Shown here: in pieces, positions 1 to 26,523 of the stretch
Position numbering within the stretch: the first letter of the stretch is position 1
Layout of the letters: every line of letters begins with the position of its first letter
Assembly (NCBI GenBank): GCA_016203945.1
Contig: JACQLT010000002.1
Location: 73,585-137,584 of the forward strand
Reading direction: 5' to 3'
Length of the DNA: 64,000 nt
DNA from: Parcubacteria group bacterium
Lineage (GTDB): Bacteria; Patescibacteriota; Minisyncoccia; Minisyncoccales; UBA10102
Translations under genes and position numbers: made by a program
The notes under the pieces: model-generated
Seen by the model: only the letters and a program-made list of their open reading frames with translations
The model's database searches: none
What the model was told of the DNA's origin: nothing

Positions 1-831
1 GTAAGAGCAAAAGATTATGTCAAAGAAGTTTTCTTTGAGGGGAAGCAGGGAGACGCTCTCCATATCCATCACAATGGGTTTTACATTGGGCAGATTTTTT
101 GCGGCAAGCACGGATACCGCATCCCGAGAAACATCGGAGGCGTACACAATCCCTTGGGGGCAAAGGCGCGACATGATTTCTGTTTGGGTGCCCGTTCCGC
201 AGCACAATTCAAGAATAACGGCGTTTGGCGCAAGCTCGAACTGCTTAAATATCCACTCGTGAAGATTTTGGGAAGAATATCGCGCGTTAGAGCTTAGGCG
301 TTCTTGCAAATCAGAAGCGCTCACCGCCTTTTCCAACACGTCCTCGCTTAACTGCCCCGAAGATTGTTCCCTTTTCTCGTATGTCATAAGCATGCATTCA
401 TTGCCTTGAAACGTTGTCTTTCCTTTTGGCTGAAACCCGGCACGCTCAAAGGATTTTTGGGAAGCTATGTTCGATTCTTTAATATACGCACTGATGGTCT
501 CAATATCTGCACGCTCTTGAAACACGAGCGAGACCGCCTGCTGAATTGCCCCGGGCGCGTACCCTTTTCCCCGCCAAGAAGACATAAGCGCAATGTCTAT
601 TTCCCCTGCGTTCCCATGAAGATCAATGCGCACCTGACCGATCTTCTCTCCTTCTCTCTCTATCACGAAAAGGCAGGCGTTGGAATCTTGAAATTTTGAA
701 GCAAACCACGCCTTGTGAGTTGCGAGGTCAATTGGTTCTGTATTGAAATGAAGCTTCTTTGCAGAAGGATCATTGCGCAGTTCAAAATAGAACATAAGGT
801 CTTCAGGCGCTGCTCTGCGGAGTGAAACCAT
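1..831 (-). CDS. GNAT N-acetyltransferase fused to class I SAM-dependent methyltransferase (start at 831; C-terminus runs off window start)
   Basis: Hand translation of the reverse strand from ATG at 829-831 gives MVSLRRAAPEDLMFYFELRNDP...; GNAT motif IDIALMSSWRGKGYAPGAIQQAV; then MTase motif I VILELCCGTGTQTEIM. Not in the ORF track because there is no stop codon in the window. Confidence 0.6.
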   Translation of the reverse strand, partial: MVSLRRAAPEDLMFYFELRNDPSAKKLHFNTEPIDLATHKAWFASKFQDSNACLFVIEREGEKIGQVRIDLHGNAGEIDIALMSSWRGKGYAPGAIQQAVSLVFQERADIETISAYIKESNIASQKSFERAGFQPKGKTTFQGNECMLMTYEKREQSSGQLSEDVLEKAVSASDLQERLSSNARYSSQNLHEWIFKQFELAPNAVILELCCGTGTQTEIMSRLCPQGIVYASDVSRDAVSVLAAKNLPNVKPIVMDMESVSLLPLKENFFDIIFCSY

Positions 832-865
832 GCACGGATTATCCTAACAAAAAAGGGGGGCTTAT

Positions 866-1993
866 TCAAGCCCCCACGAGATCCAAGGTGAGAGGAGTTG
901 CCTCCTCAATATCTCTTGTGGCCCTCTTCCCCAGCACTCCGTCAAAGTGTTTGGGCAAAAGTCCTGCTCCTGGACGCGCCACCCGAATGTTTTCTAAGGT
1001 AAAAAGCTCTCCTTTTTTGACGGGTTTCTGCACCCATATTGAGGGCCGGAACTCCTTATTCGCCTCTTCAGCAGGAGAAGCAGGTCCATAGTGAACCTGA
1101 CCCATGGCTTTCTCCACCTGCTCTGAAGAAATGCTCAGCTCCGAGAGCACTGCTTCTCGCTCCCCTTTCTCTCCCCTTCTGATGAGCTCTACCATGTACT
1201 TGAACTCTTTTGGTTCTAGAGAGAATCTTGCGTCAGGCCCTCCCAAAGAGCGGTCCAATATAAAATGTTTCTCAAGGACAGAGGCGCCTGCCGCCACCGC
1301 AGCTACTACTGGAATTTCAATGCCGGCATTATTATCCGAAAACCCTCCGATAACCCCAAACCGCTGACTCACATCCGTAATCACCCGCAAGTTCGCATGC
1401 TCCCACGAGGGCTTGTCCGAATATGTCGTGATGCAATGAAGCGCAACAATATCCTGACAGCCGTTGCTCCGCAGGGTGCGTAAGGCTTCATCCACTTCTT
1501 CAAGTGAAGCAAAGCCGATGGATATAATCGCCGGCTTCCCGGTTTTGGCAACTTTTTGCAGTAGCGGAATGTGCACTGCCTCATACGCACCTATTTTGTA
1601 GCACGGAGGTTGAACCTCTTTCTCCAGAAAATCTACTGCGCTTTCAAAAAAGGGCGTGGAGAAAAGAACAATGCCGAGTTCGTCTGCCAGCTTCTTGAGT
1701 TTTGGCTGCCATTCCCAGGGAGTATATGCGGTCTGGTAGAGCTCCCACAAACTTCTGTCAACCCATGCTTCGGGCCGGTCCCCTTCAGCTTTCACCACAA
1801 ACCACTTTTTGCGTGAGTTCAAAGTAATTTCTGGCGTGTAGGTCTGCAGTTTTACCGCGTCAGCTCCAGCTTTCTTTGCCTGCTTTATCAGTTCTACTGC
1901 TTCTTCGTACTTTTGATGATGATTCCCTGACAACTCCGCCACAATAAAACAGGGTTGACCCTCTCCTACCATTTTTTTTCCTATACGTATCAT
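866..1993 (-). CDS. pseI: NeuB-family nonulosonic acid synthase with C-terminal SAF domain, closest to pseudaminic acid synthase PseI
   Basis: FIVAELSGNH and KKAGADAVKLQTYTPEITLNS motifs closely parallel PseI/NeuB; TIM-barrel plus SAF tail. Confidence 0.75.
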   Translation of the reverse strand: MIRIGKKMVGEGQPCFIVAELSGNHHQKYEEAVELIKQAKKAGADAVKLQTYTPEITLNSRKKWFVVKAEGDRPEAWVDRSLWELYQTAYTPWEWQPKLKKLADELGIVLFSTPFFESAVDFLEKEVQPPCYKIGAYEAVHIPLLQKVAKTGKPAIISIGFASLEEVDEALRTLRSNGCQDIVALHCITTYSDKPSWEHANLRVITDVSQRFGVIGGFSDNNAGIEIPVVAAVAAGASVLEKHFILDRSLGGPDARFSLEPKEFKYMVELIRRGEKGEREAVLSELSISSEQVEKAMGQVHYGPASPAEEANKEFRPSIWVQKPVKKGELFTLENIRVARPGAGLLPKHFDGVLGKRATRDIEEATPLTLDLVGA

Positions 1994-1998: not shown

Positions 1999-2748
1999 CT
2001 ACAATTTTCGTATTTCAGCGAGAATCGCAAAATGGTCGCTTACCCCGTCTTGTAAACGTACATTGGAAGCTTCGTACTGGGGGGTAGTGAAAAGACCGTC
2101 TATCATCAATGACCTGCCACGCAGCTTTTCTCCTAACCGATGCAAATTGACATCAATACTTGTCGTATAGTGAGAAGGGATATTATCTTTATAGCACTTC
2201 GCCAGCTCAGCGAAAATCTCTTCTCCTCTGGGCGCGTTGAAATCTCCGCAAAACACCATATCCGGAAAATCCTGCAGGGTCTTCAAAAGCCCTGCCACAT
2301 GCGTTCTTTGAACATCATCTACTTTCCCGTCTGGCGTCCAGGTGAAATGAGTTGTCCCAATAGTAAAGCCCTTCCCATCCTTCTGAAGCGCTGCAGAAAG
2401 CACAAGATGATAATACGACTGATGGTTTCCGTCGAACATAAGATTCCGCACTGACTCTTCGTCTCCGTGGTAGTATGATTTTCTAAGATTGCTCATAGGC
2501 AAACGAGAGAGTAGGGCGATGCCAAAGGGAAGAAAAAGGGGTTCCAGTTTGTTATCCCTGCCCATAAGCACCATCTGCCCAAAGGCGCTCTCCATGCCGA
2601 GTTCCTCTGCGAACTTTTGCAGATCATGTTCATATATCTCCTGAAGGCAGACCACATCGGGTTTTTCTTTTTGCAAAAAAGCCAAAACTCTATCCAGATG
2701 TTTTGTCCCTTCAATGTTAACGCACGCAAGAGAAAGAAAATTACTCAT
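1999..2748 (-). CDS. endonuclease/exonuclease/phosphatase (EEP) family protein
   Basis: EEP-like motifs incl. C-terminal SDHFAI; start chosen at MSNFLS (ATGA overlap with upstream gene). Confidence 0.55.
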   Translation of the reverse strand: MSNFLSLACVNIEGTKHLDRVLAFLQKEKPDVVCLQEIYEHDLQKFAEELGMESAFGQMVLMGRDNKLEPLFLPFGIALLSRLPMSNLRKSYYHGDEESVRNLMFDGNHQSYYHLVLSAALQKDGKGFTIGTTHFTWTPDGKVDDVQRTHVAGLLKTLQDFPDMVFCGDFNAPRGEEIFAELAKCYKDNIPSHYTTSIDVNLHRLGEKLRGRSLMIDGLFTTPQYEASNVRLQDGVSDHFAILAEIRKL

Positions 2749-3545
2749 AGAGGTTTTTTTGCGCGAAAAGAAGTAGCGGCCCACGGAGTTTGTTCAATGT
2801 CCACAAGCCCGCATTTCTCAAACCACGCTTGTACCTCGGCAGTAGTATAGGCCCTTTGATGAAAGGGCGTGAGGCTGTCAAACGTATCGTGAGCAGACCA
2901 TTGAAAGTCGGGCAGCGCAACAAAAGGAAATATTGCCCGCACTGCTTTTCCTAAAAAAGGGATGCGTGCGACAGGGAGAAAGAGCGAGACTACGGCGTAA
3001 GAGTACCACAGCGGCAGTGTATATCCAAAGAGTGGGCGGAGCAGTCGAAACATAGTGCGATAGAGACGCAAGGTCGGAAAATCATAGTATCCTCCTTTTT
3101 TGTAGACCGAAACCGCAACCCAGCCGCCGGGTTTTACCGTCCTCACCATTTCCTGAAATCCCCGGAAGGGATCTTTCGTGTGATGAAGAACGCCGATGGA
3201 AAAGGCTCCGTCCAAAGAATTTGATTCGATGGGAGCTTGCAGCACGTCTCCTTGATACAGCACCACATGAGGATCGTTCTTAAAATGCTGCTTTGCGATC
3301 TCTAACGCTGCCTCATCTGCCTCAATGCCAACGACCCTGCCGTTTTTCATGCGCACCACCTCCAAAAATCTCCCGGGTCCGCATCCAAAGTCGCCGATCG
3401 TCATCCCCTCCAAGGAGCCCTTCTTTCCTGTTATCTGCTCCCACATGCGAAGGGTATAGCCCTCCAGGAGCTTTCCCTTGTTCTCGCTTTCAAACTGAAG
3501 TTTTTTCCAGTGTTTCCACTGATAATTGAAAGAAGATGTATTCAT
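2745..3545 (-). CDS. class I SAM-dependent methyltransferase
   Basis: Motif I DFGCGPGRF, Methyltransf_11-like layout. Confidence 0.7.
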   Translation of the reverse strand: MNTSSFNYQWKHWKKLQFESENKGKLLEGYTLRMWEQITGKKGSLEGMTIGDFGCGPGRFLEVVRMKNGRVVGIEADEAALEIAKQHFKNDPHVVLYQGDVLQAPIESNSLDGAFSIGVLHHTKDPFRGFQEMVRTVKPGGWVAVSVYKKGGYYDFPTLRLYRTMFRLLRPLFGYTLPLWYSYAVVSLFLPVARIPFLGKAVRAIFPFVALPDFQWSAHDTFDSLTPFHQRAYTTAEVQAWFEKCGLVDIEQTPWAATSFRAKKPL

Positions 3546-3556: not shown

Positions 3557-4486
3557 TTACGAGCACCTCAAAACGCACTCAAGAAAGTTCGCCTGTTTGG
3601 GAAAATCGCAAGCCCAAACAGATTTCCCTGTTTTCTGCCATTGGCGCATGATATAGCTTATTCTTGAAAAGATTTCTGCAAGAAATCCGAGGCGAAGCTG
3701 GGCAAAAGAAATATCGTGCGCTCCATAGAACTTGGCAAAGCGCATAACACGCTCTTTGATTGCGTGAGGAGAAAGCTTTTTTGCGTCAAACAGAGAAAAT
3801 CGGAATGCGGCAAAAGCAAGCTCGCAGAGCGCATCTCCCCGATGCATTCCTCCAAAATCTAATATAAGAGCAACCGTATTTCCCGCAAAAAACACATTTC
3901 CCGGCTGCAGATCTCCATGAATGAGCTGGGGCCGAGCGAGTACGCGCTTTCGTTTTGCAAGCAAGGTAGAGGCCTCTAAAAGCGCAGAGAAATAAGCGGC
4001 CCACTCTTTTCTGCGAGAGAATTTTTTCTCCATTCTTTTGAGTTCACGCGGTGAGAGCATGTTATACAAACGAGCGTTCATCCTCTGCGCAGGATACGGA
4101 ACAGGGCAGCGTAAGAGCGCTTCGTGGAGACGGGCAAGTTCTCTTGCGAAAGAACGCATTTCTTTTGAGTTTCCAGAAAAGAATTTTCCTTTGGAGAAAA
4201 CAAAGAGCAAGAACCCTCCCCTTCCTGCAAATGCGCCTTTTGCCGTAGGAAGAACCTCCGGCACCTTAGCCCCCTTTCTCTTGCAAAAAGCAAGAACCCG
4301 CGCCTCAAGCTCCAGACGCTTTCGGGGAATGATCGTATCTTTTTTAAGCACGTATTTCCTCCCGCCTGCTCCTATGAGATAGTTGGCGCTGTTGATGTTT
4401 GCCCCCGGGAGCTTCCGACAAATCGAAACCCTGCCCAGGGCAGGATACTCCTGCTCAACGTATTTTTTCACTCCAGCATTTCCCAT
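3557..4486 (-). CDS. aminoglycoside phosphotransferase/choline-kinase family (APH-fold) kinase
   Basis: Brenner motif LIHGDLQPGNVFF and ILDFGGMHRGD (catalytic/Mg-binding loop) typical of APH/ChoK fold. Confidence 0.6.
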   Translation of the reverse strand: MGNAGVKKYVEQEYPALGRVSICRKLPGANINSANYLIGAGGRKYVLKKDTIIPRKRLELEARVLAFCKRKGAKVPEVLPTAKGAFAGRGGFLLFVFSKGKFFSGNSKEMRSFARELARLHEALLRCPVPYPAQRMNARLYNMLSPRELKRMEKKFSRRKEWAAYFSALLEASTLLAKRKRVLARPQLIHGDLQPGNVFFAGNTVALILDFGGMHRGDALCELAFAAFRFSLFDAKKLSPHAIKERVMRFAKFYGAHDISFAQLRLGFLAEIFSRISYIMRQWQKTGKSVWACDFPKQANFLECVLRCS

Positions 4487-5517
4487 TGGAGAAAAGTTCC
4501 TGCGGGAATATCTTGCGCCGCTTTCTTTCCCAGAACTTCGTGGCCCTGGGCAACAGAAATACCGGCATTTCCGGGGCGGCGAAAGTCAAGCATCTCAAGC
4601 GTAATGTTTTCGCCCTGGGCAATGTTGCGGTTGGCTACAAAGCTTCTCCGCGCATTCTCCTCCACCCGCGAAGAGGAAAGAATGTCAGCCGACCCCATAG
4701 CTTTTTCTACTCTCCGCACATTGTCAACGAACTGCTTGAGCTCGTGGGGCTCCAAAGACATAAAATGTTCCACTCTTTCGGTTGCCCGGTCGGGAGAAAG
4801 AGTTTTCTCCAACATATTAGCTCCCAGGGCCACCGCCGCATAGTTCATAAGGTCTCCAAGAGAATGATCGGCAAAGCCTACGGGAAACCCAGTCATTTCC
4901 TTGATGGCGGGGATCGCGCGAAGATGCACGGTGTCGTCGAGAGCGGGATACCCCGCAGGGCAGTGCATGATGATCACCTCCTCGTTTCCTGCCTTTTTGC
5001 AAATCTCCACTCCCCTTCTTACATCTTCAAATTTTTCTCTTCCGTCAAGAATCACGGGGAGACCGGTCTTTGCCATTGCTTCAATTAATAACGCATTGTT
5101 CACGTCTCCTTTACTTACCTTGAGCGCATCCACTCCAAGATCTCGCATGCGTGCCACCGTGTCAAAAAAATAGGCAGAAGCGATAAAAAGGAGCCCATTC
5201 TCGTGGGCAAAAGAAGCTAAGGCCTTCCACTCTTCAAAATGGAGTTCCCTTCTTTTAAGGGCCTCTTGCACCGATTCCTTTTTTCTGCCCGTGGGAGTGC
5301 CGAACTCCACCTCAATATCCCTTCTACCTCCCATCATGCGCTCCGCTTCCCCGGGAAGAAACGTCTGGAACTTTACCGCGTCAGCTCCTGCTGCTGCCAC
5401 CGCGTCCAAGAGCGCTTTTGCTTCCGAAACTGTAGTGTAGGTAGCGCTGGGTTCAAAGGCAATAAGGCAGGGGTTGCCGTCTCCTACCAATGTATGGCCA
5501 ATGCTTACCTGTTTCAT
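4468..5517 (-). CDS. second NeuB-family synthase paralog (divergent), with SAF domain
   Basis: AAGADAVKFQTF, NeuB-like TIM barrel and C-terminal SAF (antifreeze-like) domain; clearly different subfamily from the gene at 866-1993. Confidence 0.75.
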   Translation of the reverse strand: MKQVSIGHTLVGDGNPCLIAFEPSATYTTVSEAKALLDAVAAAGADAVKFQTFLPGEAERMMGGRRDIEVEFGTPTGRKKESVQEALKRRELHFEEWKALASFAHENGLLFIASAYFFDTVARMRDLGVDALKVSKGDVNNALLIEAMAKTGLPVILDGREKFEDVRRGVEICKKAGNEEVIIMHCPAGYPALDDTVHLRAIPAIKEMTGFPVGFADHSLGDLMNYAAVALGANMLEKTLSPDRATERVEHFMSLEPHELKQFVDNVRRVEKAMGSADILSSSRVEENARRSFVANRNIAQGENITLEMLDFRRPGNAGISVAQGHEVLGKKAAQDIPAGTFLQWEMLE

Positions 5518-10527: not shown

Positions 10528-10556
10528 AGTTTAGCATTTTGTATAAAATTTGTCAA
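10528..10556 (-). promoter_or_regulatory. sigma70-like promoter (TTGACA-17-TAAACT) for the NUDIX gene
   Basis: Reverse strand reads CCTTGACAAATTTTATACAAAATGCTAAACT; same extended -35 (TTGACAAA) recurs at 36806, 37020, 37500. Confidence 0.45.
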
Positions 10557-20106: not shown

Positions 20107-20341
20107 GGGATTTCATTTTCTTTGTTATCGCTTCTTGGATTGCTGCGAAAGAGACGAGATCTGGAATTTCCCGATCGCCAAAACGCATGCCAAACTCTTC
20201 CTGGAGAGCCATGACAAGACGGAGATGCTGAAGCGAATCCCACTGGGCAATGGTATAAATGGATGCGTTGTCTTTGATGAGAGTGCGATCCACTTCCAAA
20301 GAATCCGCCATAATGCTTTTAATGCGTTCTTCCGTGCTCAT
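20093..20341 (-). CDS. acyl carrier protein
   Basis: About 80 aa with phosphopantetheine-attachment DSL motif (AQWDSLQHLRLVMALQEEFG); start taken at MSTEERIKSIM (ATGA overlap with FkbH gene). Confidence 0.7.
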   Translation of the reverse strand: MSTEERIKSIMADSLEVDRTLIKDNASIYTIAQWDSLQHLRLVMALQEEFGMRFGDREIPDLVSFAAIQEAITKKMKSHGKE

Positions 20342-22122
20342 ACGGCCTGCTGCGGAGTCATATGTATTGTCTGGAACCACGGAGGAAGGAAAGGAAGAGC
20401 GCCTTCTATATTCAATGCGTACACGTTCTCAGCTTGCTTTGTAAAACCTAGGTGCGGATAGAGATCTTTTACCACGGCATTCTTTGCGGTAGGAATATAT
20501 TCTCCAGTTATCAATGTTACTCCTTGTTCTTGCAGATACAACGCTACCTTAGAAATAACCGCTTGTTCAATCGTACGGCCAATGACCCGACAGCTCTGAA
20601 GAAACATATCAATACTCGCCTTCTTGTCTTGAATCTTTACAATGAGGAGGCCGACGACCCCGTTATCCCCGAATTTATCCTGTACAGACCAGGAAAAAAC
20701 CTGCCATTTGGGATCTTCCATGCGTCTCGTAATGTCTGCTTCAGAATACTTTTTTGTCGTAAGGTTGAACTGATTTGTCTTCTGGGTCATCTGGGCCAGG
20801 CGCGGAATCTGCATTTTCTCATTCACAAAAATCGTGAGACGCATGTCCAGGGTCCTCCAGAAATCTTCCAATGAAGCCGACTCCTGCTTTAGAGAGGCCC
20901 GTTTGCCCTGATCTTGATATATCCGCACCTTTTTCAGATCTTCTTGAGAATAGATATTCTTCTCAAATACGTGTAATTCCTGAAGGAACGCTGCGTATTC
21001 GCCAGCCCCCTCCGGAAGTTCCGGGGTATACACTTCGGGAACCCGTTCTCGCATTAATTCCCGCTCAACGGGGCTGTCGTCAAGGAATACCATGCTATCT
21101 AAACCGATATCGAGCTCTTGGGCTATTTCTTGGATTGATTGAGGTTTTAGGCCCCAGCCAATCTTTGTAATAACAAAATCCTCTAGGGCAAGAGGCATAT
21201 CGTCTTTCCTTTTTAGGAATGCTTCTTTGACGTCTTCAGGATTGTTTTTTGAGGCCATTGCAAGGACAATGCCTTTTGAAGAAAGATGTTTCAATTGAAG
21301 CTGAAAATCGTAATACGCGCGCCCGGGACCCGTTGGCCCAACGATGACGCGATCTGGCCCCTCCTCTCCCACAACCCCCCCCCACAGCGTATTATCAAGA
21401 TCAAGCACAATGCACTTTTTAGTTTTTCCGTAGGCGGCAAACATAACACGGGCAATCTCTTTTCCAATCTCTACCAAACCCTCTGAAGAAAAGGGTAAAG
21501 AAGAATGGTAGTACATATTCCAGTCGTAGAAACGCTTCTTGCCGATTCTTGAGGCGATGTCTTGAACATCAAGCATATATACCTCTTTATGCCGCGAGGC
21601 CGCAGCGGCAATGCTTCTGTTGAGATGGACTAACGCTTCTTTCTGGGAATAATCCCTCTGCGCATCCAGAATGCCATAATACCATCTGCCAGGATGATCG
21701 AATGTCGTAAGAATGATGCGGGGCTGTGATGTTCTGCGGGCTGCTGCAACAAGCTGCTCCATGCGATGAACAACTTCCTGCGTCTTCTTTTCCAGTTCCA
21801 AGGGAGTTATGTTGTGAAAGTCGTAGATGAGTTCGGGAAAAAATTCTTGGAGAGTGGCAAAGAGAAGAACGACATCATACGCGCCTTTGCCATACTCTCC
21901 TGCCGGGTCGAGAAGTTCCTGCTCAAATATGTTATAGCCGAAAAATCGGATGGTTGGCGCGAATCCTTCTGAAACAAGCTCGACCCGCACCACGGGCTCA
22001 ATGGGTTCCAGCGTGCACGAACGGAATACGGCAAGCGAAAGAGGCGTCCCTCGGGGTGTCTCGCCAATCTGTCTTGCTAGTTCCAAATAATCCTTGTACG
22101 TACTCTTCATTGTTTGGTGCAT
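20338..22122 (-). CDS. FkbH-like HAD-superfamily (subfamily IIIC) protein with C-terminal acyltransferase-like domain
   Basis: HAD motif LDLDNTLWGG, FkbH-domain architecture (about 590 aa). Confidence 0.7.
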   Translation of the reverse strand: MHQTMKSTYKDYLELARQIGETPRGTPLSLAVFRSCTLEPIEPVVRVELVSEGFAPTIRFFGYNIFEQELLDPAGEYGKGAYDVVLLFATLQEFFPELIYDFHNITPLELEKKTQEVVHRMEQLVAAARRTSQPRIILTTFDHPGRWYYGILDAQRDYSQKEALVHLNRSIAAAASRHKEVYMLDVQDIASRIGKKRFYDWNMYYHSSLPFSSEGLVEIGKEIARVMFAAYGKTKKCIVLDLDNTLWGGVVGEEGPDRVIVGPTGPGRAYYDFQLQLKHLSSKGIVLAMASKNNPEDVKEAFLKRKDDMPLALEDFVITKIGWGLKPQSIQEIAQELDIGLDSMVFLDDSPVERELMRERVPEVYTPELPEGAGEYAAFLQELHVFEKNIYSQEDLKKVRIYQDQGKRASLKQESASLEDFWRTLDMRLTIFVNEKMQIPRLAQMTQKTNQFNLTTKKYSEADITRRMEDPKWQVFSWSVQDKFGDNGVVGLLIVKIQDKKASIDMFLQSCRVIGRTIEQAVISKVALYLQEQGVTLITGEYIPTAKNAVVKDLYPHLGFTKQAENVYALNIEGALPFLPPWFQTIHMTPQQAV

Positions 22123-22457
22123 ATGACGAATGCCAAAGCATAATCTTTTACGTGAGCCATGCTTATCTGACAGGCAGGATGGCGGGCCTGCTTTTGCGGC
22201 AAGAATGCAATGGAGGGTTTTCCCGATGCGGATGTTCTGATCTCAACCTGCAGATAGGATACGGGCTTTTCGATCGCTTTGAATGTTGCTTCTTTTGCCG
22301 CAAAGCGCGCGGCAAAATGTTGGAGCGGAAATGCCTTGCTCTTGCAGAAGCGGATCTCTTTTGCGCTAAATACGCGCTTCATAAATTCTTGCTTCTTCAT
22401 TGCCTTGGCAAAATCAGGAAGAAATACGATATCAACGCCGACTCCTAATACAGACAT
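22107..22457 (-). CDS. acpS: holo-ACP synthase (4'-phosphopantetheinyl transferase, AcpS-type)
   Basis: MSVLGVGVDIV N-terminus and ASGKPSI motif typical of AcpS. Confidence 0.7.
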   Translation of the reverse strand: MSVLGVGVDIVFLPDFAKAMKKQEFMKRVFSAKEIRFCKSKAFPLQHFAARFAAKEATFKAIEKPVSYLQVEIRTSASGKPSIAFLPQKQARHPACQISMAHVKDYALAFVICTKQ

Positions 22458-22467: not shown

Positions 22468-23607
22468 CTATCTTCGATATCGCGCAATGATCTCGCGCAC
22501 TGCCCTGACAACAGCGCGTATTTCTCCCGATATCATCTTGGGAAACAACGGCAGGGTTATCGCCCGCTCATAATACTGTTCAGCAATGGGGAAATCGCCT
22601 TTCTTGTATCCGAATGTTTTTTTATAAAACGGATGGAGGTGAACCGGAATATAGTGCACCTGCACGCCAAGGCCTTTGTTGCGCAACGCTTCAAATATTT
22701 TTCTTCTTCCGGTTTTTAATAATTCCAAGCGCAGTCGGATGGGATACAAATGATACGCAGACCTGGCATACGCTTTCTCGACAGGAAGAATTATCTCTGA
22801 AATATTACGAAACGCTTGGTTATACCGTCGCACGATCTCTCTTCTCGTCTTTACGAACCTATCCAGTTTCTGGAACTGACTGAGGCCCAGGGCGCACTGT
22901 ATGTCAGAAATGCGGTAATTATATCCCGGCCTCTCTATCTCGTAATACCATGCTCCCCTCTCTGGTTTTCTGATAAGTCCGTGGTTTCGAAACGCCTTTA
23001 GAGTTCTGTAGAAATCCTTTCTGTCGGTAACAACCATTCCTCCTTCTCCCGTAGTAATGGCTTTTACCGGATGAAAGCTGAACATGGTCATATCGGAGAA
23101 TGATCCTACTTTCTTGCCTTTGTATTCTGAACCCAAGGCATGGGCGGCATCTTCAATAACCAGAAGATTGTGCTCTCTCGCGATCTTTTTTATGGTGTCC
23201 AGTTCTGCTGGATGACCTGCAAAATCAACCGGAGCCAACGCCTTGGTCCTTTTGGTAATTTTCTTTTTGATTGCTTCTGGGCTGATATTCAACGTATTCT
23301 CTTGAATATCGGCAAAGACGGGCTTTCCTCCGCAATACACAATGGCGTTCGCGGTCGCGGCAAACGTCATGGGAGTGGTGATAACTTCGTCTCCCGGCCC
23401 GATGCGAGCCGCAGCGTATGCCGCGTGCAAAGCTGCGGTTCCCGAAGAAAACGCCACCGCGTACTTTACTCCGCAATACCCGGCTATTGCCTGCTCAAAT
23501 TGCTCGACTCTTGGCCCCTGGGTAATCCAGTCGCTCTTTAATATACGCACAACGGAAGCAATATCGCTCCCGTCTATTTGCTGGTGGCCGTAGGGAATAG
23601 TTTTCAT
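22468..23607 (-). CDS. pseC: UDP-4-amino-4,6-dideoxy-N-acetyl-beta-L-altrosamine transaminase
   Basis: Strong identity to PseC blocks: AHALGSEYKGKKVGSF, FSFHPVKAITTGEGGMVVTD. Confidence 0.85.
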   Translation of the reverse strand: MKTIPYGHQQIDGSDIASVVRILKSDWITQGPRVEQFEQAIAGYCGVKYAVAFSSGTAALHAAYAAARIGPGDEVITTPMTFAATANAIVYCGGKPVFADIQENTLNISPEAIKKKITKRTKALAPVDFAGHPAELDTIKKIAREHNLLVIEDAAHALGSEYKGKKVGSFSDMTMFSFHPVKAITTGEGGMVVTDRKDFYRTLKAFRNHGLIRKPERGAWYYEIERPGYNYRISDIQCALGLSQFQKLDRFVKTRREIVRRYNQAFRNISEIILPVEKAYARSAYHLYPIRLRLELLKTGRRKIFEALRNKGLGVQVHYIPVHLHPFYKKTFGYKKGDFPIAEQYYERAITLPLFPKMISGEIRAVVRAVREIIARYRR

Positions 23608-24587
23608 ATCTCATGCTTCATTGTATCAAGCATCTTTTTCATTTCTTCCTTTGTGATGGCGCGCTCATTCCGGTCGCTCCGATATGAAAAACTGGCGGGG
23701 ACGGGCTTCCCTTCCTTTGAGTTTTCTTCTTTCCAGAAAGAAAATTCGGGAGCAATCACATACATATCATCAAACTCTCTTGTATGTCTTGCCTCTTCTT
23801 CGCAAATGAGCGTTTCGTGAAGCTTCTCTCCGGGGCGAATGCCGACGATTTTTACTTTGGCTTCGGGCGCCACCGTCTGAGCCAGATCAAGAACCCGCAT
23901 GCTCGGAACTTTTGGCACGAACACTTCGCCTCCATGCATGCGCTCAATGCATGTGATGACGAAACGAATGCCTTCTTCGAGCGAGATCCAAAATCGCGTC
24001 ATGCGCTCGTCGGTTACGGTAACTTCCCCTGTTTTGCGCTGTTCCAGGAATAGAGGAATGACAGATCCTGAAGAGGCGATCACGTTGCCGTAGCGAGCCG
24101 AGCTCAGACGCACGTTCTTATGGCTGCCGTATGCGTTTCCCTGAACAAAGAGTTTTTCCGCAACCATCTTTGTGGCCCCATACAAATTTGCGGGCTGCAC
24201 CGATTTATCGGTGCCGATGTTCATCACCAAGGGCACCCGCTGATCAATGGCGGCGTCAATCACATTGACGGCTCCTTCAATGTTGGTGCGTACCGCCTCA
24301 ATCGGATTGTATTCGCACACGGGGATATGCTTTAAGGCTGCGGCATGCACCACCACGTCAACGTCTGCCATAGAACGCTCCAGGCGACTCTTGTCTCGTA
24401 CGTCTCCGAGAAAAAAGCGCAGGCGCCTATCAGAAAACCTGCGCCCCATTTCAACGAGTTGCAGCTCGTTGTTGTCAAAAATACGCACGACCGCAGGGTT
24501 GTGTTCCTTGAGAATAACCTCGGCAAACTCCTGCCCAAAAGAACCCGCCCCTCCCGTTATCAAAATTGTTTTGCCTTGAAAAATCAT
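23604..24587 (-). CDS. pseB: UDP-N-acetylglucosamine 4,6-dehydratase (inverting)
   Basis: KTILITGGAGSFGQEF, RMTRFWISLEEGIRFV, GIRPGEKLHE blocks match FlaA1/PseB. Confidence 0.85.
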   Translation of the reverse strand: MIFQGKTILITGGAGSFGQEFAEVILKEHNPAVVRIFDNNELQLVEMGRRFSDRRLRFFLGDVRDKSRLERSMADVDVVVHAAALKHIPVCEYNPIEAVRTNIEGAVNVIDAAIDQRVPLVMNIGTDKSVQPANLYGATKMVAEKLFVQGNAYGSHKNVRLSSARYGNVIASSGSVIPLFLEQRKTGEVTVTDERMTRFWISLEEGIRFVITCIERMHGGEVFVPKVPSMRVLDLAQTVAPEAKVKIVGIRPGEKLHETLICEEEARHTREFDDMYVIAPEFSFWKEENSKEGKPVPASFSYRSDRNERAITKEEMKKMLDTMKHEI

Positions 24588-24627
24588 GAAATCCGTAGAC
24601 CCTGTATATCACACATGCTCCGCTTTA

Positions 24628-26523
24628 TCAACGAGGTGTCATCCAGCGCTCGTACCACATTTGAAACATGAGCAGGAACCAGAGCTTGTGCGCATCCACT
24701 CCCCTGCCTTCTCTATGGCGCTTGAGCGCGCGCTGAACCGCCCGCTGGTCGAATAACCCGTGCAGCAAAAGACGCTCTGGTGCCAGATACTCCTGAAGAA
24801 AACGGGAAAAATCCTGCCTAAGCCAGGCATGGATGGGAATGCCAAATCCCTGCTTGGGGCGCTCGATGAGTTCCTCTGGGATGTAGCGCGCAAGAATCTT
24901 CTTGAGTAAATATTTGCTTTGTCCCTTTTTAAACTTGATGGAACTTGGAACCCGAGCAACGTACTCGGCTATCTTTTGATCAAGAAATGGCTCTCTCCCT
25001 TCCAGGCCGACTGCCATGGTCGCCCGATCTGCTTTTACCAAGATATCGTCTGGCAGGTACACGCGAAAATCCGCGACTTGCATCTTGGCGAACGCATCAA
25101 GAGAACCAAGCTCATTAAACCCGTAGAAACTGCTGTTGGCATCAAATGGAAATCGAAGAAGCTGCAAAAGCTGCTGGCGCGTCCAGAAGGAGTTGGCGGT
25201 GCGGAATATGTCTTCAAATGAGCGTTCGCGCAGAAGATTTCTTAGTTTATACACCTTATTTTTTAAGTTCGTATGTTTTTTTAAAGAAGGAGAAAAAAGG
25301 GCTAGTCCAACAGCGAGCGAACGAGAGAGCGCTGGCGGCAACGCCCCAAATTTTCTCTGGTACCACTCCAAAGCCCCGTATTTGGGGTATCCGCCAAAAA
25401 GCTCGTCTCCCCCATCTCCGGAAAGAACTACTTTTACCTGTTCTCTCGCAAACTTGGAAACCAGATGTGTCGGGATTGCCGAGCTGTCTCCAAACGGCTC
25501 GTCATACATGTCGGGAAGCTGGGGAATGACGTCGGCTGCCATTTCTTTGGTGCAGTAGAGCTCGTGGTGTTCGGTCCCAAAATATTGAGCTATCTTCTTT
25601 GCGAATGGCGCCTCGTCGTATCCTTTTTCATGGAACCCAATTGTGAACGTCTTTATGGGAGCTCCCGCCTGTTTCTGCAAGAGAGCGGCTATCGTGGAAG
25701 AATCTAGGCCGCCGCTCAAAAATATCCCGACTGGCACGTCTGCCACCATGCGGTAGCGAAACGATTCAAGAAGAATGCCTTCCAATTCTTCTATGATTTC
25801 CTCTTCGGATTTCTGAAAAGGTCCAAGCTGGTAAAAGGAGGCGATGTCCCAGTATCGCACTTCCTTTGAGTTGCCGTGCGTATCAATCTCAAGATAGGAG
25901 CCCGGCTGCAGCTTGAAGGTGTTCTGAAATATAGTATGGGGCGCCGGAATGTAGCCGAGCTGCAGAAACAAAGCAAGCGCTTCGTAATTGATCTCTTTCT
26001 TGAACTCGGGGTGTTTGTGAAGCGCCTTGAGTTCTGAAGCAAAAAGCAAGAGGCCGTTTTTTTGGTAATAGTACAAAGGTTTTACGCCCGCCCGGTCCCT
26101 GCACAAGATGAGTTTGCCGGAGTTGGCATCCCAAATGGCAAAAGCGAACATGCCCCGGAACCTTGCGACACTTTCCATGCCCCATTCTTCATACGCCTCA
26201 AGAATGACTTCTGTGTCCGAGGCGCTCTTAAATTTCCTGCCTCGTTTCTCAAGCTCGCTGCGAACTTCTTGAAAATTATAGATCTCTCCATTGAACGCGA
26301 TCCAAAGAGTTTTCGTTTTGTTTGCCATGGGCTGATGCCCCAGCGAAGACAAGTCAATGATGGCAAGACGCGTATGACCCAGACCGATGCCGTGTTCTTG
26401 AGAAACAAAAACGCCCCGGTCGTCAGGACCCCGATGGCTGAGGCATTCTGCCATGCGCGAGAGCACGCTCTCCTCAAGAAAAGAGCGCTGCCGAGCGTCA
26501 AAAATACCGACAATGCCGCACAT
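24628..26523 (-). CDS. asparagine synthetase B-family glutamine amidotransferase
   Basis: MCGIVGIF Ntn-amidotransferase start, PP-loop SGGLDSS. Confidence 0.85.
   Translation of the reverse strand: MCGIVGIFDARQRSFLEESVLSRMAECLSHRGPDDRGVFVSQEHGIGLGHTRLAIIDLSSLGHQPMANKTKTLWIAFNGEIYNFQEVRSELEKRGRKFKSASDTEVILEAYEEWGMESVARFRGMFAFAIWDANSGKLILCRDRAGVKPLYYYQKNGLLLFASELKALHKHPEFKKEINYEALALFLQLGYIPAPHTIFQNTFKLQPGSYLEIDTHGNSKEVRYWDIASFYQLGPFQKSEEEIIEELEGILLESFRYRMVADVPVGIFLSGGLDSSTIAALLQKQAGAPIKTFTIGFHEKGYDEAPFAKKIAQYFGTEHHELYCTKEMAADVIPQLPDMYDEPFGDSSAIPTHLVSKFAREQVKVVLSGDGGDELFGGYPKYGALEWYQRKFGALPPALSRSLAVGLALFSPSLKKHTNLKNKVYKLRNLLRERSFEDIFRTANSFWTRQQLLQLLRFPFDANSSFYGFNELGSLDAFAKMQVADFRVYLPDDILVKADRATMAVGLEGREPFLDQKIAEYVARVPSSIKFKKGQSKYLLKKILARYIPEELIERPKQGFGIPIHAWLRQDFSRFLQEYLAPERLLLHGLFDQRAVQRALKRHREGRGVDAHKLWFLLMFQMWYERWMTPR

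What the first reader, a model, noticed from the sequence alone, without database searches (positions are those of the whole stretch)
1..26523. 26.5-kb co-directional supercluster for a heavily decorated pseudaminic-acid-type nonulosonic acid
Everything from 26523 down to 1 is on the minus strand with gaps mostly under 15 nt and at least nine ATGA overlaps, consistent with one or two transcription units. PseB (23604-24587) and PseC (22468-23607) are clear orthologs, fixing the pathway as pseudaminic-acid-like. Around them sit two NeuB/PseI synthases, a CMP-transferase, GNATs and an AsnB-like amidotransferase. The cluster also carries a PAPS-reductase-like PP-loop enzyme, a GSA-aminomutase-like aminotransferase, a second DegT aminotransferase and two Gfo/Idh/MocA oxidoreductases. 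It further has an SDR epimerase, four methyltransferases (one TylF-type O-MTase), an ATP-grasp enzyme, an APH-like kinase, and NUDIX and HAD hydrolases. A DPM1-like GT2 plus polytopic membrane protein, and an acyl-carrier module, are also present. This diversity of tailoring enzymes around a Pse core is far beyond canonical pseB-C-H-G-I-F loci and implies a multiply N-acylated/O-methylated nonulosonic acid (plus possibly a second diamino sugar).
Basis: partly seen in the sequence, partly recalled or inferred. Interest (0 to 1): 0.85.

Follow-up and report, generated by a model that had tools for sequence, protein, structure and literature searches.

The report
Mosaic pseudaminic-acid glycan island in Parcubacteria
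A tightly packed run of 28 same-strand genes in an uncultured Parcubacteria (CPR) genome really does encode pseudaminic-acid synthesis, but comparison with relatives shows a patchwork of at least three separable sugar pathways, not one pathway for a single heavily decorated sugar.

Summary
Window 1-26523 holds 28 minus-strand genes, 10-11 possible 4-nt start/stop overlaps and only five gaps over 30 nt.

The island is a mosaic of separable parts.

(A) AsnB-PseB-PseC-AcpS-FkbH-ACP-GNAT-MaoC/ketoreductase is a Pse core with an ACP-borne glycerate-derived N-acyl donor. It is collinear in close relatives.

(C) The left block has a conserved trio (SpsF-like cytidylyltransferase, divergent NeuB2, APH kinase) that is also found in Thaumarchaeota. 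This points to a second ulosonic acid.

No PseG or PseF equivalog is present. The cluster runs off the window's left end, so 26.5 kb is a lower bound. It is a new variant of a known kind, the glycosylation island, of moderate interest.

The parts
24628..26523 (-). g28, AsnB-type glutamine amidotransferase (631 aa, N-terminal MCGIVG). First gene of the run. Its role in the glycan is inferred only.
   Evidence: Pfam Asn_synthase 373 bits plus GATase_6/7. TIGR01536 scores 533 bits (cut-off 267); TIGR03108 scores 610 bits, below its cut-off of 817. An AsnB at 62% identity sits in the same position in L044.
23604..24587 (-). g27, PseB: UDP-GlcNAc 4,6-dehydratase (inverting).
   Evidence: TIGR03589 scores 444.1 bits against a cut-off of 407.75. 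Pfam Polysacc_synt_2 scores 312 bits. The protein is 87-88% identical in L044 and L048.
22468..23607 (-). g26, PseC: UDP-4-amino-4,6-dideoxy-beta-L-AltNAc transaminase. It overlaps PseB by 4 nt.
   Evidence: TIGR03588 scores 498.9 bits against a cut-off of 423.5. The overlap is shown.
22107..22457 (-). g25, AcpS-type 4'-phosphopantetheinyl transferase. The probable start is the ATG at 22457; the maximal ORF reaches 22511.
   Evidence: Pfam ACPS 57.7 bits. TIGR00556 scores 77.7 bits (cut-off 45). Relatives call a 116-aa protein.
20338..22122 (-). g24, FkbH-like loader (HAD-IIIC phosphatase plus transferase). It is predicted to load a glyceryl unit onto the ACP.
   Evidence: TIGR01686 FkbH domain scores 289.8 bits (cut-off 146.65). 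The DLDNTLW motif is present. The best PDB match is 3slr (BF1531) at 174 bits. Close relatives are 69-86% identical, after which identity drops to about 40%.
20093..20341 (-). g23, acyl carrier protein (83 aa counted from the ATG at 20341; DSL serine motif).
   Evidence: Pfam PP-binding and NCBIfam ACP models score 43 bits, below their cut-offs. The motif WDSLQHL is seen. Relatives aa.
19537..20106 (-). g22, GNAT (Acetyltransf_3). It is the candidate acyl-ACP-dependent N-acyltransferase that would take the PseH position.
   Evidence: Pfam Acetyltransf_3 69.5 bits. PseH TIGR03585 scores only 26.8 bits (cut-off 93). The gene always follows the ACP in L044-L046.
17922..19574 (-). g21, MaoC hot-dog dehydratase fused to a FabG-like ketoreductase (SDR). 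It probably remodels the ACP-bound acyl group.
   Evidence: Pfam MaoC_dehydratas covers residues 23-110 and adh_short_C2 covers 312-546. The motifs SGDTNPLH, TGxxxGIG and YxxxK are present. The protein is 84-89% identical in L044-L046.
16891..17913 (-). g20, Gfo/Idh/MocA oxidoreductase resembling UDP-GlcNAc 3-dehydrogenase. It is the first gene of the separable cassette.
   Evidence: NF040723 scores 162.5 bits, below its cut-off of 450. Homologs of 40-42% identity sit next to the ATP-grasp gene in 9 loci. Only its first ~17 nt survive in L045.
15821..16894 (-). g19, ATP-grasp ligase (PylC-like N-terminal domain). It is the marker gene of the cassette.
   Evidence: Pfam PylC-like_N 36 bits. PRK12767-type models score 73 bits, below their cut-offs. 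There are 43 related loci at about 45-57% identity across many phyla.
14905..15828 (-). g18, NAD-dependent sugar-nucleotide epimerase/dehydratase (SDR).
   Evidence: Pfam Epimerase 170 bits. It follows the ATP-grasp gene collinearly in most of the 43 loci.
14177..14908 (-). g17, class I SAM methyltransferase.
   Evidence: Pfam Methyltransf_23 69 bits. It is conserved in the cassette at 35-42% identity.
13548..14189 (-). g16, HAD-family phosphatase.
   Evidence: Pfam HAD_2 63 bits. It is conserved in the cassette.
12442..13551 (-). g15, second DegT-family sugar aminotransferase. The probable start is the ATG at 13551, which overlaps the HAD stop by 4 nt.
   Evidence: Pfam DegT_DnrJ_EryC1 421 bits. 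PseC TIGR03588 scores 295 bits, below its cut-off of 424. It is the last enzyme of the cassette in the 43 loci.
11757..12467 (-). g14, GT2 polyprenyl-phosphate glycosyltransferase of the ArnC/DPM1/GtrB type.
   Evidence: Pfam Glycos_transf_2 94.7 bits. Weak full-length matches to ArnC (58 bits), dolichyl-phosphate hexose transferase and PpgS are all below their cut-offs.
10562..11743 (-). g13, GT-C-fold membrane glycosyltransferase (393 aa, about 10 TM helices). It has no Pfam family.
10528..10556 (-). Promoter-like TTGACA-17-TAAACT element in the 86-nt gap before NUDIX, at the cassette junction.
   Evidence: Found by the scan (10 of 12 matches, with TG). The TTGACA block and its flanks are conserved in relative L045 at the deletion junction. 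Its function has not been shown.
10065..10475 (-). g12, NUDIX hydrolase.
   Evidence: Pfam NUDIX 67.8 bits. It is 74% identical in L045, where it directly follows MaoC-SDR.
9235..9993 (-). g11, TylF-type O-methyltransferase.
   Evidence: Pfam TylF 176 bits. It is present in L045, L051, L052 and L058.
8441..9145 (-). g10, APS/PAPS-reductase-like PP-loop protein that keeps the CC...CxxC and ECGIH motifs.
   Evidence: Pfam PAPS_reduct 108.6 bits. NF002537 scores 139 bits, below its cut-off of 154. The motifs are seen in the translation. It sits next to TylF in L051 and L052.
7171..8469 (-). g09, class III aminotransferase of the GSA-aminomutase-like PRK06209 type (432 aa by relatives' calls).
   Evidence: Pfam Aminotran_3 181 bits. 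NF004856 scores 386 bits, below its cut-off of 486. It is 60-92% identical in L048 and L051.
6224..7174 (-). g08, Gfo/Idh/MocA oxidoreductase.
   Evidence: Pfam GFO_IDH_MocA plus the C3 domain. It is 68% identical in L051. An aldo-keto reductase takes this position in L048.
5514..6227 (-). g07, SpsF-like cytidylyltransferase (237 aa counted from the ATG at 6227).
   Evidence: Pfam CTP_transf_3 67.5 bits. No PseF or NeuA equivalog hit was found; the best NCBIfam match is a KdsB subfamily model at 58 bits, below its cut-off of 255. It lies directly upstream of NeuB2 in L051, L052 and L054.
4468..5517 (-). g06, NeuB2: a divergent NeuB-family ulosonic-acid synthase.
   Evidence: Pfam NeuB 188 bits plus SAF. 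It scores below both the NeuB (227 vs 400) and PseI (184 vs 340) cut-offs. It is about equally distant from solved PseI, NeuB and SpsE (104-118 bits). Relatives of 55-68% identity occur in CPR and Thaumarchaeota.
3557..4486 (-). g05, APH-family small-molecule kinase.
   Evidence: Pfam APH 76 bits. It follows NeuB2 in L051 and L054, and in L052 after a small cupin gene. No close solved structure was found.
2745..3545 (-). g04, class I SAM methyltransferase.
   Evidence: Pfam Methyltransf_11 76.9 bits.
1999..2748 (-). g03, endonuclease/exonuclease/phosphatase (EEP) family hydrolase, directly upstream of PseI.
   Evidence: Pfam Exo_endo_phos 45 bits. EEP lies directly upstream of PseI in L052, and in L051 with a reverse-strand NUDIX gene between them. 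The only PDB similarity is a faint match to nocturnin (E 0.04).
866..1993 (-). g02, PseI: pseudaminic acid synthase.
   Evidence: TIGR03586 scores 373.9 bits against a cut-off of 340.25. It scores 234 bits to solved PseI 8h2c against 122 bits to NeuB.
1..831 (-). g01, GNAT fused to a SAM methyltransferase, truncated by the window edge. The GNAT is the candidate PseH-like enzyme.
   Evidence: Pfam Acetyltransf_3 72.5 bits plus Methyltransf_25. PseH TIGR03585 scores 36 bits, below its cut-off of 93. Relatives have PseI-GNAT and PseI-GNAT-MT fusion proteins.
26453..31179 (+). Two divergently transcribed Wzy_C (O-antigen-ligase/O-oligosaccharyltransferase-type) plus TPR membrane proteins (26453-28924 and 28921-31179).
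   Evidence: Pfam Wzy_C 68 and 73 bits plus TPR repeats. The same adjacency to the Pse island is seen in L048, L052, L058 and L044.

Best explanation
This is a hypervariable cell-surface glycan island of a Parcubacteria (CPR) bacterium. It is built by stacking at least three separable biosynthetic modules behind a divergent pair of Wzy_C/TPR ligase-like genes.

Module A (26523-17922). PseB and PseC convert UDP-GlcNAc to UDP-4-amino-4,6-dideoxy-beta-L-AltNAc; this step is shown by orthology. In place of a plain PseH acetylation, an AcpS-activated ACP is loaded by FkbH with a glycerate-derived unit. The MaoC-dehydratase/ketoreductase fusion may convert that unit to a lactyl- or pyruvoyl-type acyl group. 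GNAT g22 then transfers the acyl group to the sugar amine. These acyl steps are inferred.

Module B (17913-10562). This is a self-contained, Arn-like pathway. An oxidoreductase/SDR and the DegT aminotransferase make an amino-sugar nucleotide. An ATP-grasp ligase, with a methyltransferase and a HAD phosphatase, N-acylates or tailors it. The GT2 puts it on polyprenyl phosphate, and the GT-C enzyme g13 transfers it to an acceptor outside the membrane. The GT-C fold and the modularity are shown; the chemistry is inferred.

Module C (10475-1). NUDIX, TylF O-methyltransferase, an APS-reductase-like protein, a class-III aminotransferase with an oxidoreductase, the conserved trio SpsF-like cytidylyltransferase/NeuB2/APH kinase, a methyltransferase, an EEP phosphatase, PseI and a GNAT-methyltransferase. 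PseI completes Pse; this step is shown by orthology. The trio most likely makes and CMP-activates a second, different ulosonic acid, possibly through a phosphorylated intermediate; this is inferred.

No PseG is encoded. Release of UDP is probably done by a non-orthologous hydrolase (NUDIX and/or EEP) or by a gene beyond the window.
For: - Pse core: PseB, PseC and PseI are above equivalog cut-offs. PseI scores 234 bits to solved PseI against 122 bits to NeuB.
- Module A is collinear and 56-89% identical in L044, L045 and L046. The FkbH domain scores 290 bits against a cut-off of 147, and the ACP DSL motif, AcpS and the MaoC hydratase motif are all present.
- Precedent: C. jejuni 11168 makes Pse carrying a 2,3-di-O-methylglyceroyl N-acyl group (PMC3068675). 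Its flagellar glycosylation locus holds the FkbH-domain gene cj1302 (PMC7099621).
- Module B separability: by blastn, L045 matches window 23403-17900 and then jumps to 10513-9669. The junction keeps the first ~17 nt of the Gfo2 ORF.
- Module B distribution: ATP-grasp-SDR-MT-HAD-(FdtA)-DegT is collinear in most of the 43 loci from Woesearchaeota to cyanobacteria. A NeuB-family gene lies within 10 kb in only 2 of them. Twenty of the 43 carry an FdtA 3,4-ketoisomerase where the window variant has Gfo2 instead.
- Module C: the CTP3-NeuB2-APH order is conserved in L051, L052 and in Nitrosotalea devaniterrae L054, which also has a second NeuB and Pse-type genes. NeuB2 is below both the NeuB and PseI cut-offs and about equally distant from all solved synthases.
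- Island variability at a fixed position next to Wzy_C: L048, L052 and L058.
- An SpsF-type cytidylyltransferase is required for nonulosonic-acid transfer in B. subtilis (PMC7439481).
Against: - No product chemistry, expression data or enzyme assay exists for any of these genes.
- All genes are co-directional and tightly spaced, so co-transcription and a single composite glycan that contains all the products remain possible. Modules may cooperate on one polymer even though they are genetically separable.
- The substrates of the ATP-grasp, class-III aminotransferase, APH, EEP, NUDIX, AsnB and APS-reductase-like proteins are guesses.
- GNAT g22's use of acyl-ACP is inferred from gene order only.
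- Loss of module B in L045 shows that it is dispensable. It does not show that its product is unrelated to the Pse glycan.
- PseG and PseF could lie beyond the left edge of the window. A canonical CTP_transf_3 lies about 8 kb downstream of PseI in relative L057.
Confidence: 0.65

Rival explanations
1. One reading: the whole 26.5 kb is one pathway. Every tailoring enzyme decorates a single pseudaminic-acid-type nonulosonic acid, giving a multiply N-acylated, O-methylated, amidated and phosphorylated product.
For: All 28 genes are co-directional with 4-nt overlaps and short gaps. The Pse core genes sit at both ends: PseB/PseC at 22.5-24.6 kb and PseI at 0.9-2 kb. Heavily modified Pse is known from C. 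jejuni.
Against: Genes g20-g13 are deleted in an 84%-identical relative that keeps the flanking Pse genes. Their enzyme core occurs in 41 of 43 loci without any NeuB-family gene. They include their own polyprenyl-phosphate GT2 and GT-C transferase, which act on hexose-type NDP-sugars and not on CMP-ulosonic acids. There is a second NeuB with its own cytidylyltransferase. Related islands are far smaller.
Confidence: 0.1
2. There are two variants of one sugar. NeuB2, its cytidylyltransferase and its kinase do not make a chemically different ulosonic acid. They form a parallel branch that condenses and activates an alternatively N-acylated Pse/Leg precursor, so the cell displays two Pse/Leg derivatives. 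Module B is still separate.
For: C. jejuni runs parallel Pse and Leg branches from one locus (own knowledge, and the abstract of PMC13130089 listed). JGI labels some NeuB2 relatives 'N,N'-diacetyllegionaminate synthase'. The thaumarchaeal locus L054 also has two NeuB genes beside Pse-type genes.
Against: No LegB/LegC/LegG-type genes or hydrolysing 2-epimerase are in the window. NeuB2 is below the NeuB cut-off and about equally distant from all solved synthases. The conserved kinase partner is not part of any known Pse or Leg route.
Confidence: 0.18
3. The cluster is an artefact or a decaying locus: a chimeric metagenome assembly, or a pile of non-functional paralogs with no shared role.
For: The window comes from a metagenome-assembled genome. 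The two close contigs L045 and L046 from one assembly differ in content.
Against: All 28 reading frames are intact and catalytic motifs are conserved. Three independent assemblies reproduce window 484-8860 at 99.98-100% identity. L044 independently confirms the MaoC-SDR to Gfo2 junction and L045 the NUDIX-TylF order. Base composition is even across the region.
Confidence: 0.02

Closest known systems
[quoted passage not shown]
   Same: Both are large islands built around pseB/pseC with an FkbH-domain gene, ACP(s) and methyltransferases. The C. jejuni product includes Pse N-acylated with 2,3-di-O-methylglyceroyl (PMC3068675; PMC7099621). Both have modular, strain-variable content.
   Different: The host here is a CPR bacterium; no flagellar or maf genes were seen in the window, and PseG, PseH and PseF equivalogs are missing. 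This island has a MaoC-ketoreductase fusion and an AcpS that the Campylobacter locus is not reported to have. It is adjacent to Wzy_C/TPR genes, not Maf transferases. It also contains an Arn-like GT2/GT-C cassette and an APS-reductase-like gene.
Arn (PmrHFIJKLM) L-Ara4N lipid A modification pathway: ArnA (SDR), ArnB (DegT aminotransferase), N-acylation, ArnC (GT2), ArnT (GT-C)
   Different: There is no orthology: ArnC scores 58 bits against a cut-off of 529 and ArnB 220 bits against 631. N-acylation is by an ATP-grasp ligase, not a formyltransferase. No deformylase or ArnE/F was seen. CPR bacteria are not known to make lipid A (own knowledge), so the acceptor must differ.
FdtA/FdtB-type dTDP-3-amino-3,6-dideoxyhexose cassettes, and WbpB/WbpE (GnnA/GnnB) UDP-GlcNAc3N synthesis
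   Same: Twenty of the 43 related ATP-grasp cassettes carry FdtA plus a DegT aminotransferase. The window variant instead has a Gfo/Idh/MocA enzyme resembling UDP-GlcNAc 3-dehydrogenase plus DegT.
   Different: The scores are far below equivalog cut-offs. The conserved ATP-grasp, methyltransferase and HAD partners have no described counterpart in those pathways. No paper linking them was found.
FkbH/ACP glyceryl-ACP modules of polyketide pathways (methoxymalonyl-ACP, tetronates; lactyl starter of FR901464)
   Same: Both combine an FkbH loader with a dedicated ACP. Dehydratase plus ketoreductase acting on glyceryl-ACP to give lactyl-ACP is known for FR901464 (own knowledge). Papers on FkbH and glyceryl-ACP are listed (PMC3679948, PMC7489565).
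   Different: There is no PKS here. The acyl group is proposed to go to a sugar amine through a GNAT. The dehydratase here is MaoC-type and fused to an SDR.
Legionella pneumophila Sg6/Sg12 O-antigen locus and the Bacillus subtilis sps (legionaminic acid) genes
   Same: The Legionella locus groups a class-III (GSA-like) aminotransferase, an acylneuraminate cytidylyltransferase and an aryl-alcohol-dehydrogenase-like oxidoreductase with PseG and DegT (PMC3694923). SpsF-type cytidylyltransferase and SpsE (NeuB) act in nonulosonic acid display in B. subtilis (PMC7439481).
   Different: Those loci keep a PseG/SpsG hydrolase. They have no NeuB2-APH pair, no FkbH module and no GT-C cassette.

Membership tests
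Canonical CMP-pseudaminic acid pathway (PseB, C, H, G, I, F) | PseB: inverting UDP-GlcNAc 4,6-dehydratase | tested here: met
   g27 scores 444.1 bits on TIGR03589, above the cut-off of 407.75.
Canonical CMP-pseudaminic acid pathway (PseB, C, H, G, I, F) | PseC: aminotransferase | tested here: met
   g26 scores 498.9 bits on TIGR03588, above the cut-off of 423.5. The second DegT (g15) scores 295 bits and fails.
Canonical CMP-pseudaminic acid pathway (PseB, C, H, G, I, F) | PseH: N-acetyltransferase | tested here: inconclusive
   The two GNATs score 36 bits (g01) and 27 bits (g22) on TIGR03585, below the cut-off of 93. Relatives fuse the g01-type GNAT to PseI, which supports a PseH-like role.
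Canonical CMP-pseudaminic acid pathway (PseB, C, H, G, I, F) | PseG: UDP-sugar hydrolase (GT-B, Glyco_tran_28_C) | tested here: not met
   None of the 28 products gave a Pfam or NCBIfam hit. tblastn with a PseG-like protein from L054 finds nothing in the 64-kb window or in the CPR relatives, yet finds L017 at 25% identity. The gene could lie beyond the window.
Canonical CMP-pseudaminic acid pathway (PseB, C, H, G, I, F) | PseI: pseudaminic acid synthase | tested here: met
   g02 scores 373.9 bits on TIGR03586, above the cut-off of 340.25. It scores 234 bits to solved PseI 8h2c.
Canonical CMP-pseudaminic acid pathway (PseB, C, H, G, I, F) | PseF: CMP-Pse synthetase | tested here: inconclusive
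   g07 is a CTP_transf_3 protein (67.5 bits) covering only profile positions 4-145 of 217. It gives no PseF or NeuA equivalog hit. A canonical CTP_transf_3 (179 bits) lies downstream of PseI in relative L057, so one may lie beyond the window edge.
FkbH-type glyceryl-ACP module | FkbH domain (HAD-IIIC phosphatase plus acyltransferase), a dedicated ACP with a phosphopantetheine serine, and a PPTase | tested here: met
   TIGR01686 scores 289.8 bits against a cut-off of 146.65, and TIGR01681 scores 67 bits against 36. The ACP DSL motif is present. The AcpS domain scores 77.7 bits against 45. Loading of a glyceryl unit itself was not tested.
GT-C glycosyltransferases that use polyprenyl-phosphate sugars (ArnT, PMT, ALG types) | GT-C membrane fold | tested here: met
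GT-C glycosyltransferases that use polyprenyl-phosphate sugars (ArnT, PMT, ALG types) | Acidic motif in the first extracytoplasmic loop | tested here: inconclusive
   The loop at residues 29-91 contains SDPVIDAL and ADGSFE, and the family consensus is FQxDSExLV. The residues were not mapped onto a catalytic site.
GT-C glycosyltransferases that use polyprenyl-phosphate sugars (ArnT, PMT, ALG types) | Partner GT2 that makes the polyprenyl-phosphate sugar donor | tested here: met
   g14, directly upstream, is a 236-aa GT2 with full-length weak matches to ArnC, dolichyl-phosphate hexose transferase and PpgS. Its activity was not tested.
Arn pathway orthologs (ArnB, ArnC, ArnT) | Equivalog-level similarity | tested here: not met
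   ArnC NF007986 scores 58 bits against a cut-off of 529. ArnB NF008658 scores 220 bits for g15 against 631. The module works like Arn but is not a member.
N-acetylneuraminate / legionaminate synthase (for NeuB2) | Equivalog score for NeuB or PseI | tested here: not met
   NeuB_NnaB scores 226.7 bits against a cut-off of 399.65. PseI scores 184.3 bits against 340.25. NeuB2 belongs to the Pfam NeuB superfamily only (188 bits). No LegI model was matched.
Assimilatory APS/PAPS reductase (CysH), for g10 | PAPS_reduct domain, Fe-S cysteines and the C-terminal ECG[LI]H motif | tested here: inconclusive
   The domain scores 108.6 bits, and the CC...CxxC and ECGIH motifs are present. NF002537 scores 139 bits, just below its cut-off of 154. 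The genomic context is not sulfur assimilation.

The most novel reading that the evidence does not exclude
Parcubacteria make CMP-pseudaminic acid without a PseG-type hydrolase, with NUDIX/EEP-family enzymes doing the nucleotide release. In addition, the conserved trio SpsF-like cytidylyltransferase / NeuB2 / APH-kinase, shared between CPR bacteria and ammonia-oxidising Thaumarchaeota, specifies a so far undescribed ulosonic acid. That acid would be made through a kinase-dependent (phosphorylated) intermediate, a prokaryotic parallel to the animal ManNAc-6-P/Neu5Ac-9-P route. An adjacent APS-reductase-like enzyme hints at sulfur chemistry on the sugar.
Probability: 0.2. Interest if true: 0.75.

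Novelty: new variant of a known kind. Interest (0 to 1): 0.5.

Why it matters
CPR/Patescibacteria are tiny, mostly uncultured episymbionts, and attachment to hosts is thought to depend on their cell surface. Full-text searches found no paper linking pseudaminic or nonulosonic acids to CPR or Patescibacteria. Yet PseI orthologs of 57-76% identity are named from several Parcubacteria lineages. This locus shows that such organisms invest more than 26 kb in surface-sugar chemistry, at a recombination-prone site next to ligase-like Wzy_C genes.

It also gives concrete, testable handles:
- an ACP-dependent N-acylation route for Pse;
- a widely distributed but undescribed ATP-grasp amino-sugar cassette coupled to a new GT-C family (826 representative clusters, no Pfam model);
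- a NeuB2-kinase-cytidylyltransferase trio shared with Thaumarchaeota.

None of this overturns current concepts. It extends the known glycosylation-island theme to a new phylum and flags several unassigned enzyme families.

Tried and rejected
- Extending the window leftwards. Exact look-ups of the window's PseI and AsnB products found nothing. A 50-mer from the window start was absent from JGI metagenomes. The 248-kb NCBI contig that holds the identical NeuB2 was not returned. Only relatives could be used.
- Promoter and terminator scans over 8000-27500 gave counts no higher than shuffled sequence (21 vs 20.1 promoter-like, 29 vs 22.3 terminator-like). Operon boundaries remain undefined.
- Pfam, even at E<=5, gives nothing for g13. 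Scanning 42 family members gave only one weak Glyco_transf_22 hit. Structure prediction was needed to identify the fold.
- The longer g13 relatives were checked for GT2 fusions and none was found.
- PDB sequence searches for the ATP-grasp, APH and EEP proteins gave only marginal hits, so no substrate inference was drawn from them.
- Literature searches for ATP-grasp plus FdtA cassettes and for FkbH plus lactyl found nothing directly relevant.
- An assembly artefact was considered and rejected.
- g10 as a PseA/WbpG-type amidotransferase was considered and rejected, because it keeps the CysH-specific ECGIH and Fe-S motifs.
- Rfam and tRNA scans found nothing inside the cluster.

Full report
OBSERVATION

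Between positions 1 and 26523, every long ORF that has protein-family support lies on the minus strand. There are 27 complete genes plus one (a GNAT-methyltransferase fusion, 1-831) that runs off the left end. I chose start codons by family alignment and by the gene calls in near-identical or related contigs. On that basis, ten ATG starts and one GTG start overlap the preceding stop codon by 4 nt. Only five gaps are longer than 30 nt: 40, 86, 71, 89 and 34 nt. Elsewhere in the window gene orientation alternates, and base composition is even. Contigs assembled independently from three other sequencing runs reproduce window 484-8860 at 99.98-100% identity.

GENE CONTENT

- PseB scores 444 bits (cut-off 408), PseC 499 (cut-off 424) and PseI (866-1993) 374 (cut-off 340). 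All pass the curated equivalog thresholds.
- PseI matches solved PseI at 234 bits against 122 bits for NeuB.
- The second NeuB (4468-5517) fails both the NeuB and PseI thresholds. It is about equally distant from solved PseI, NeuB and SpsE.
- The cytidylyltransferase (5514-6227) is SpsF-like and is not a PseF equivalog.
- No PseG is detectable by family models. tblastn with a PseG-like protein also finds nothing, although that query does find a 25%-identical homolog in another locus.

ORGANISM

NeuB2 is 100% identical to a protein that NCBI labels 'Parcubacteria group bacterium', from a 248.6-kb contig. The nearest PseI relatives are named Paceibacterota, Wildermuthbacteria, Yanofskybacteria and Giovannonibacteria. 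The rest of the window carries housekeeping genes: UvrA, UvrC, RNase J, a class I aminoacyl-tRNA synthetase and ClpB. It also holds DUF5667 and lamin-tail proteins.

MODULARITY: MODULE B (g20-g13, about 10.5-17.9 kb)

- The ATP-grasp gene (15821-16894) has relatives of about 45-57% identity in 43 genomes. They range from Woesearchaeota, Parcubacteria and Microgenomates to Nitrospirota, Geobacteraceae, Eremiobacterota and a cyanobacterium.
- In those loci the order ATP-grasp, SDR, methyltransferase, HAD, DegT is collinear with the window. A NeuB-family gene lies within 10 kb in only two of them.
- Twenty of the 43 loci have an FdtA 3,4-ketoisomerase between HAD and DegT. Nine have, like the window, a Gfo/Idh/MocA enzyme of 40-42% identity upstream. 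These look like two ways to reach the keto-sugar that the aminotransferase needs.
- An 84%-identical relative (L045) matches window 23403-17900 and then continues at 10513-9669. At the junction it keeps the first ~17 nt of the Gfo2 reading frame, followed by the promoter-like TTGACA element that precedes NUDIX in the window. Genes g20-g13 were therefore lost as a block in that lineage. A 77%-identical relative (L044) keeps the MaoC-SDR to Gfo2 junction.
- Module B is thus a complete pathway of the Arn type. It makes an amino sugar nucleotide, N-acylates or tailors it (ATP-grasp, methyltransferase, HAD), moves it to polyprenyl phosphate (GT2), and transfers it outside the membrane (GT-C). The fold and the modularity are shown. 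The sugar and the acceptor are inferred.

MODULARITY: MODULE A (26523-17922)

- AsnB, PseB, PseC, AcpS, FkbH, ACP, GNAT and MaoC-KR are collinear in L044-L046 at 56-89% identity.
- The next FkbH relatives drop to about 40% identity, in a family with thousands of members.
- FkbH enzymes load a glyceryl unit from 1,3-bisphosphoglycerate onto a dedicated ACP. This is established for methoxymalonyl-ACP and tetronate pathways; papers are listed.
- A dehydratase plus a ketoreductase converting glyceryl-ACP to lactyl-ACP is known from FR901464 biosynthesis (own knowledge).
- The module sits exactly where PseH would act, so I infer that GNAT g22 N-acylates the PseC product from acyl-ACP.
- There is a precedent. 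C. jejuni 11168 flagellin carries Pse with a 2,3-di-O-methylglyceroyl N-acyl group (PMC3068675). Its locus contains the FkbH-domain gene cj1302 (PMC7099621).
- The four methyltransferases could supply O-methylation.

MODULARITY: MODULE C (10475-1)

- Relative L051 conserves the whole left block, but at very uneven identity (92% for the class-III aminotransferase, 51% for APH). This indicates recombination.
- The order cytidylyltransferase, NeuB2, APH kinase is conserved in L051 and L052. It is also conserved in the thaumarchaeon Nitrosotalea devaniterrae, which additionally has a second NeuB, a PseG-like gene, a PseB-like gene and a DegT gene.
- I infer that the trio makes and activates a second ulosonic acid, possibly through a phosphorylated intermediate.
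- The association of a class-III aminotransferase, an oxidoreductase and an SpsF-like cytidylyltransferase recurs in L048. It also recurs in Legionella pneumophila Sg6/12 O-antigen loci (PMC3694923). Its chemistry is unknown.
- SpsF is required for the surface display of legionaminic acid in B. subtilis (PMC7439481), so g07 can plausibly serve as the CMP-transferase.

THE ISLAND AS A WHOLE

- Four other Parcubacteria loci put a Pse island next to divergently oriented Wzy_C genes (with weak TPR hits in L048 and L052), as in the window at 26453-31179. Their content differs:
  - L048 has a compact core plus a Cj1295-like peptidase-fold protein, Wzx, Capsule_synth and PEP mutase.
  - L052 has HisH/HisF-like genes.
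  - L058 has an ABC exporter and phosphonate genes.
- None of them has a recognisable PseG.
- The closest relative of g01 (L055, 83%) has a PseI-GNAT-methyltransferase triple fusion followed by a PIG-L de-N-acetylase. L057 has a canonical cytidylyltransferase about 8 kb downstream of PseI. The window's cluster therefore certainly continues beyond position 1.

TRANSCRIPTION

Promoter-like and terminator-like sites are no more frequent than in shuffled sequence. The only suggestive element is the TTGACA-17-TAAACT site at 10556-10528, which is conserved in L045. Operon structure is untested.

COMPARISON AND NOVELTY

- The locus works like known glycosylation islands, above all the C. jejuni flagellin locus. 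Its module B works like the Arn pathway.
- It is not a member of the canonical pseBCHGIF set: PseG is not met, and PseH and PseF are inconclusive. It is not orthologous to Arn either.
- Full-text searches found no paper linking pseudaminic or nonulosonic acids with CPR or Patescibacteria, although databases already annotate Parcubacteria PseI proteins.
- I rate it a new variant of a known kind, with interest 0.5.
- The claim that the tailoring diversity implies one multiply decorated nonulosonic acid is not supported. The diversity comes from stacking separable cassettes.

Noticed in passing
window 8441-9145 (-): The PAPS_reduct protein keeps the hallmarks of an Fe-S assimilatory APS reductase (CC, CxxC, C-terminal ECGIH). 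It is conserved next to the TylF-like methyltransferase in CPR relatives L051 and L052. This is odd inside a sugar island of a reduced genome and may be a sulfite source for a sulfonated substituent.
   Followed up: partly
window 26453-31179 (+); L048, L052, L058, L044: Two Wzy_C plus TPR membrane proteins are divergently adjacent to the Pse island in the window. Wzy_C genes (two in L052, one seen in each of L048, L058 and L044) hold the same position in four related loci. They are candidate ligases or O-oligosaccharyltransferases for the glycan. The large PG_binding protein (31304-34732) is also syntenic in L048.
   Followed up: partly
L048 20365-21134; L058 14104-17634: Related Parcubacteria islands carry cytidylyltransferase-PEP mutase fusions, and L058 also phosphonopyruvate decarboxylase and an Fe-ADH. 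These are phosphonate (2-hydroxyethyl/aminoethylphosphonate-type) decoration genes, which the window lacks.
   Followed up: no
L048 12072-13310: A DUF4910/DUF2172/Peptidase_M28 protein has the same aminopeptidase-like architecture reported for Cj1295, which is needed for the di-O-methylglyceroyl-Pse of C. jejuni. It sits in a related CPR Pse island but not in the window.
   Followed up: no
L055 20-1945; P0124, P0125, P0128, P0136: In relatives PseI is fused in frame to the GNAT, and in L055 also to the methyltransferase, that are separate genes in the window (866-1993 and 1-831). This is gene-fusion (Rosetta-stone) evidence that this GNAT works with PseI.
   Followed up: partly
L045 and L046 (both GCA_030647175.1): One MAG assembly holds two 84-86%-identical copies of the PseC-to-MaoC/SDR segment on different contigs. 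This suggests strain heterogeneity or duplication. Only L045 reaches the deletion junction.
   Followed up: no
L051 versus window 1-9147: Protein identity along the collinear left block swings from 92% (class-III aminotransferase) and 86% (NeuB2) down to 51-52% (APH, cytidylyltransferase). This suggests gene-by-gene recombination within the island.
   Followed up: no
window 47259-47345 (+): A tRNA-Leu(CAG) overlaps the first codons of the maximal RNase J ORF (GTG at 47265), so that gene must start further downstream. It is the only Rfam or tRNA hit in the window.
   Followed up: no
window 10562-11743 (-) and P0361-P0510: The g13 family has 826 representative clusters at E<=1e-3 and lacks any Pfam model, yet it folds confidently as GT-C. 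Invariant P155 and H358 and a conserved FQxDSExLV loop motif could define a new GT-C family.
   Followed up: partly
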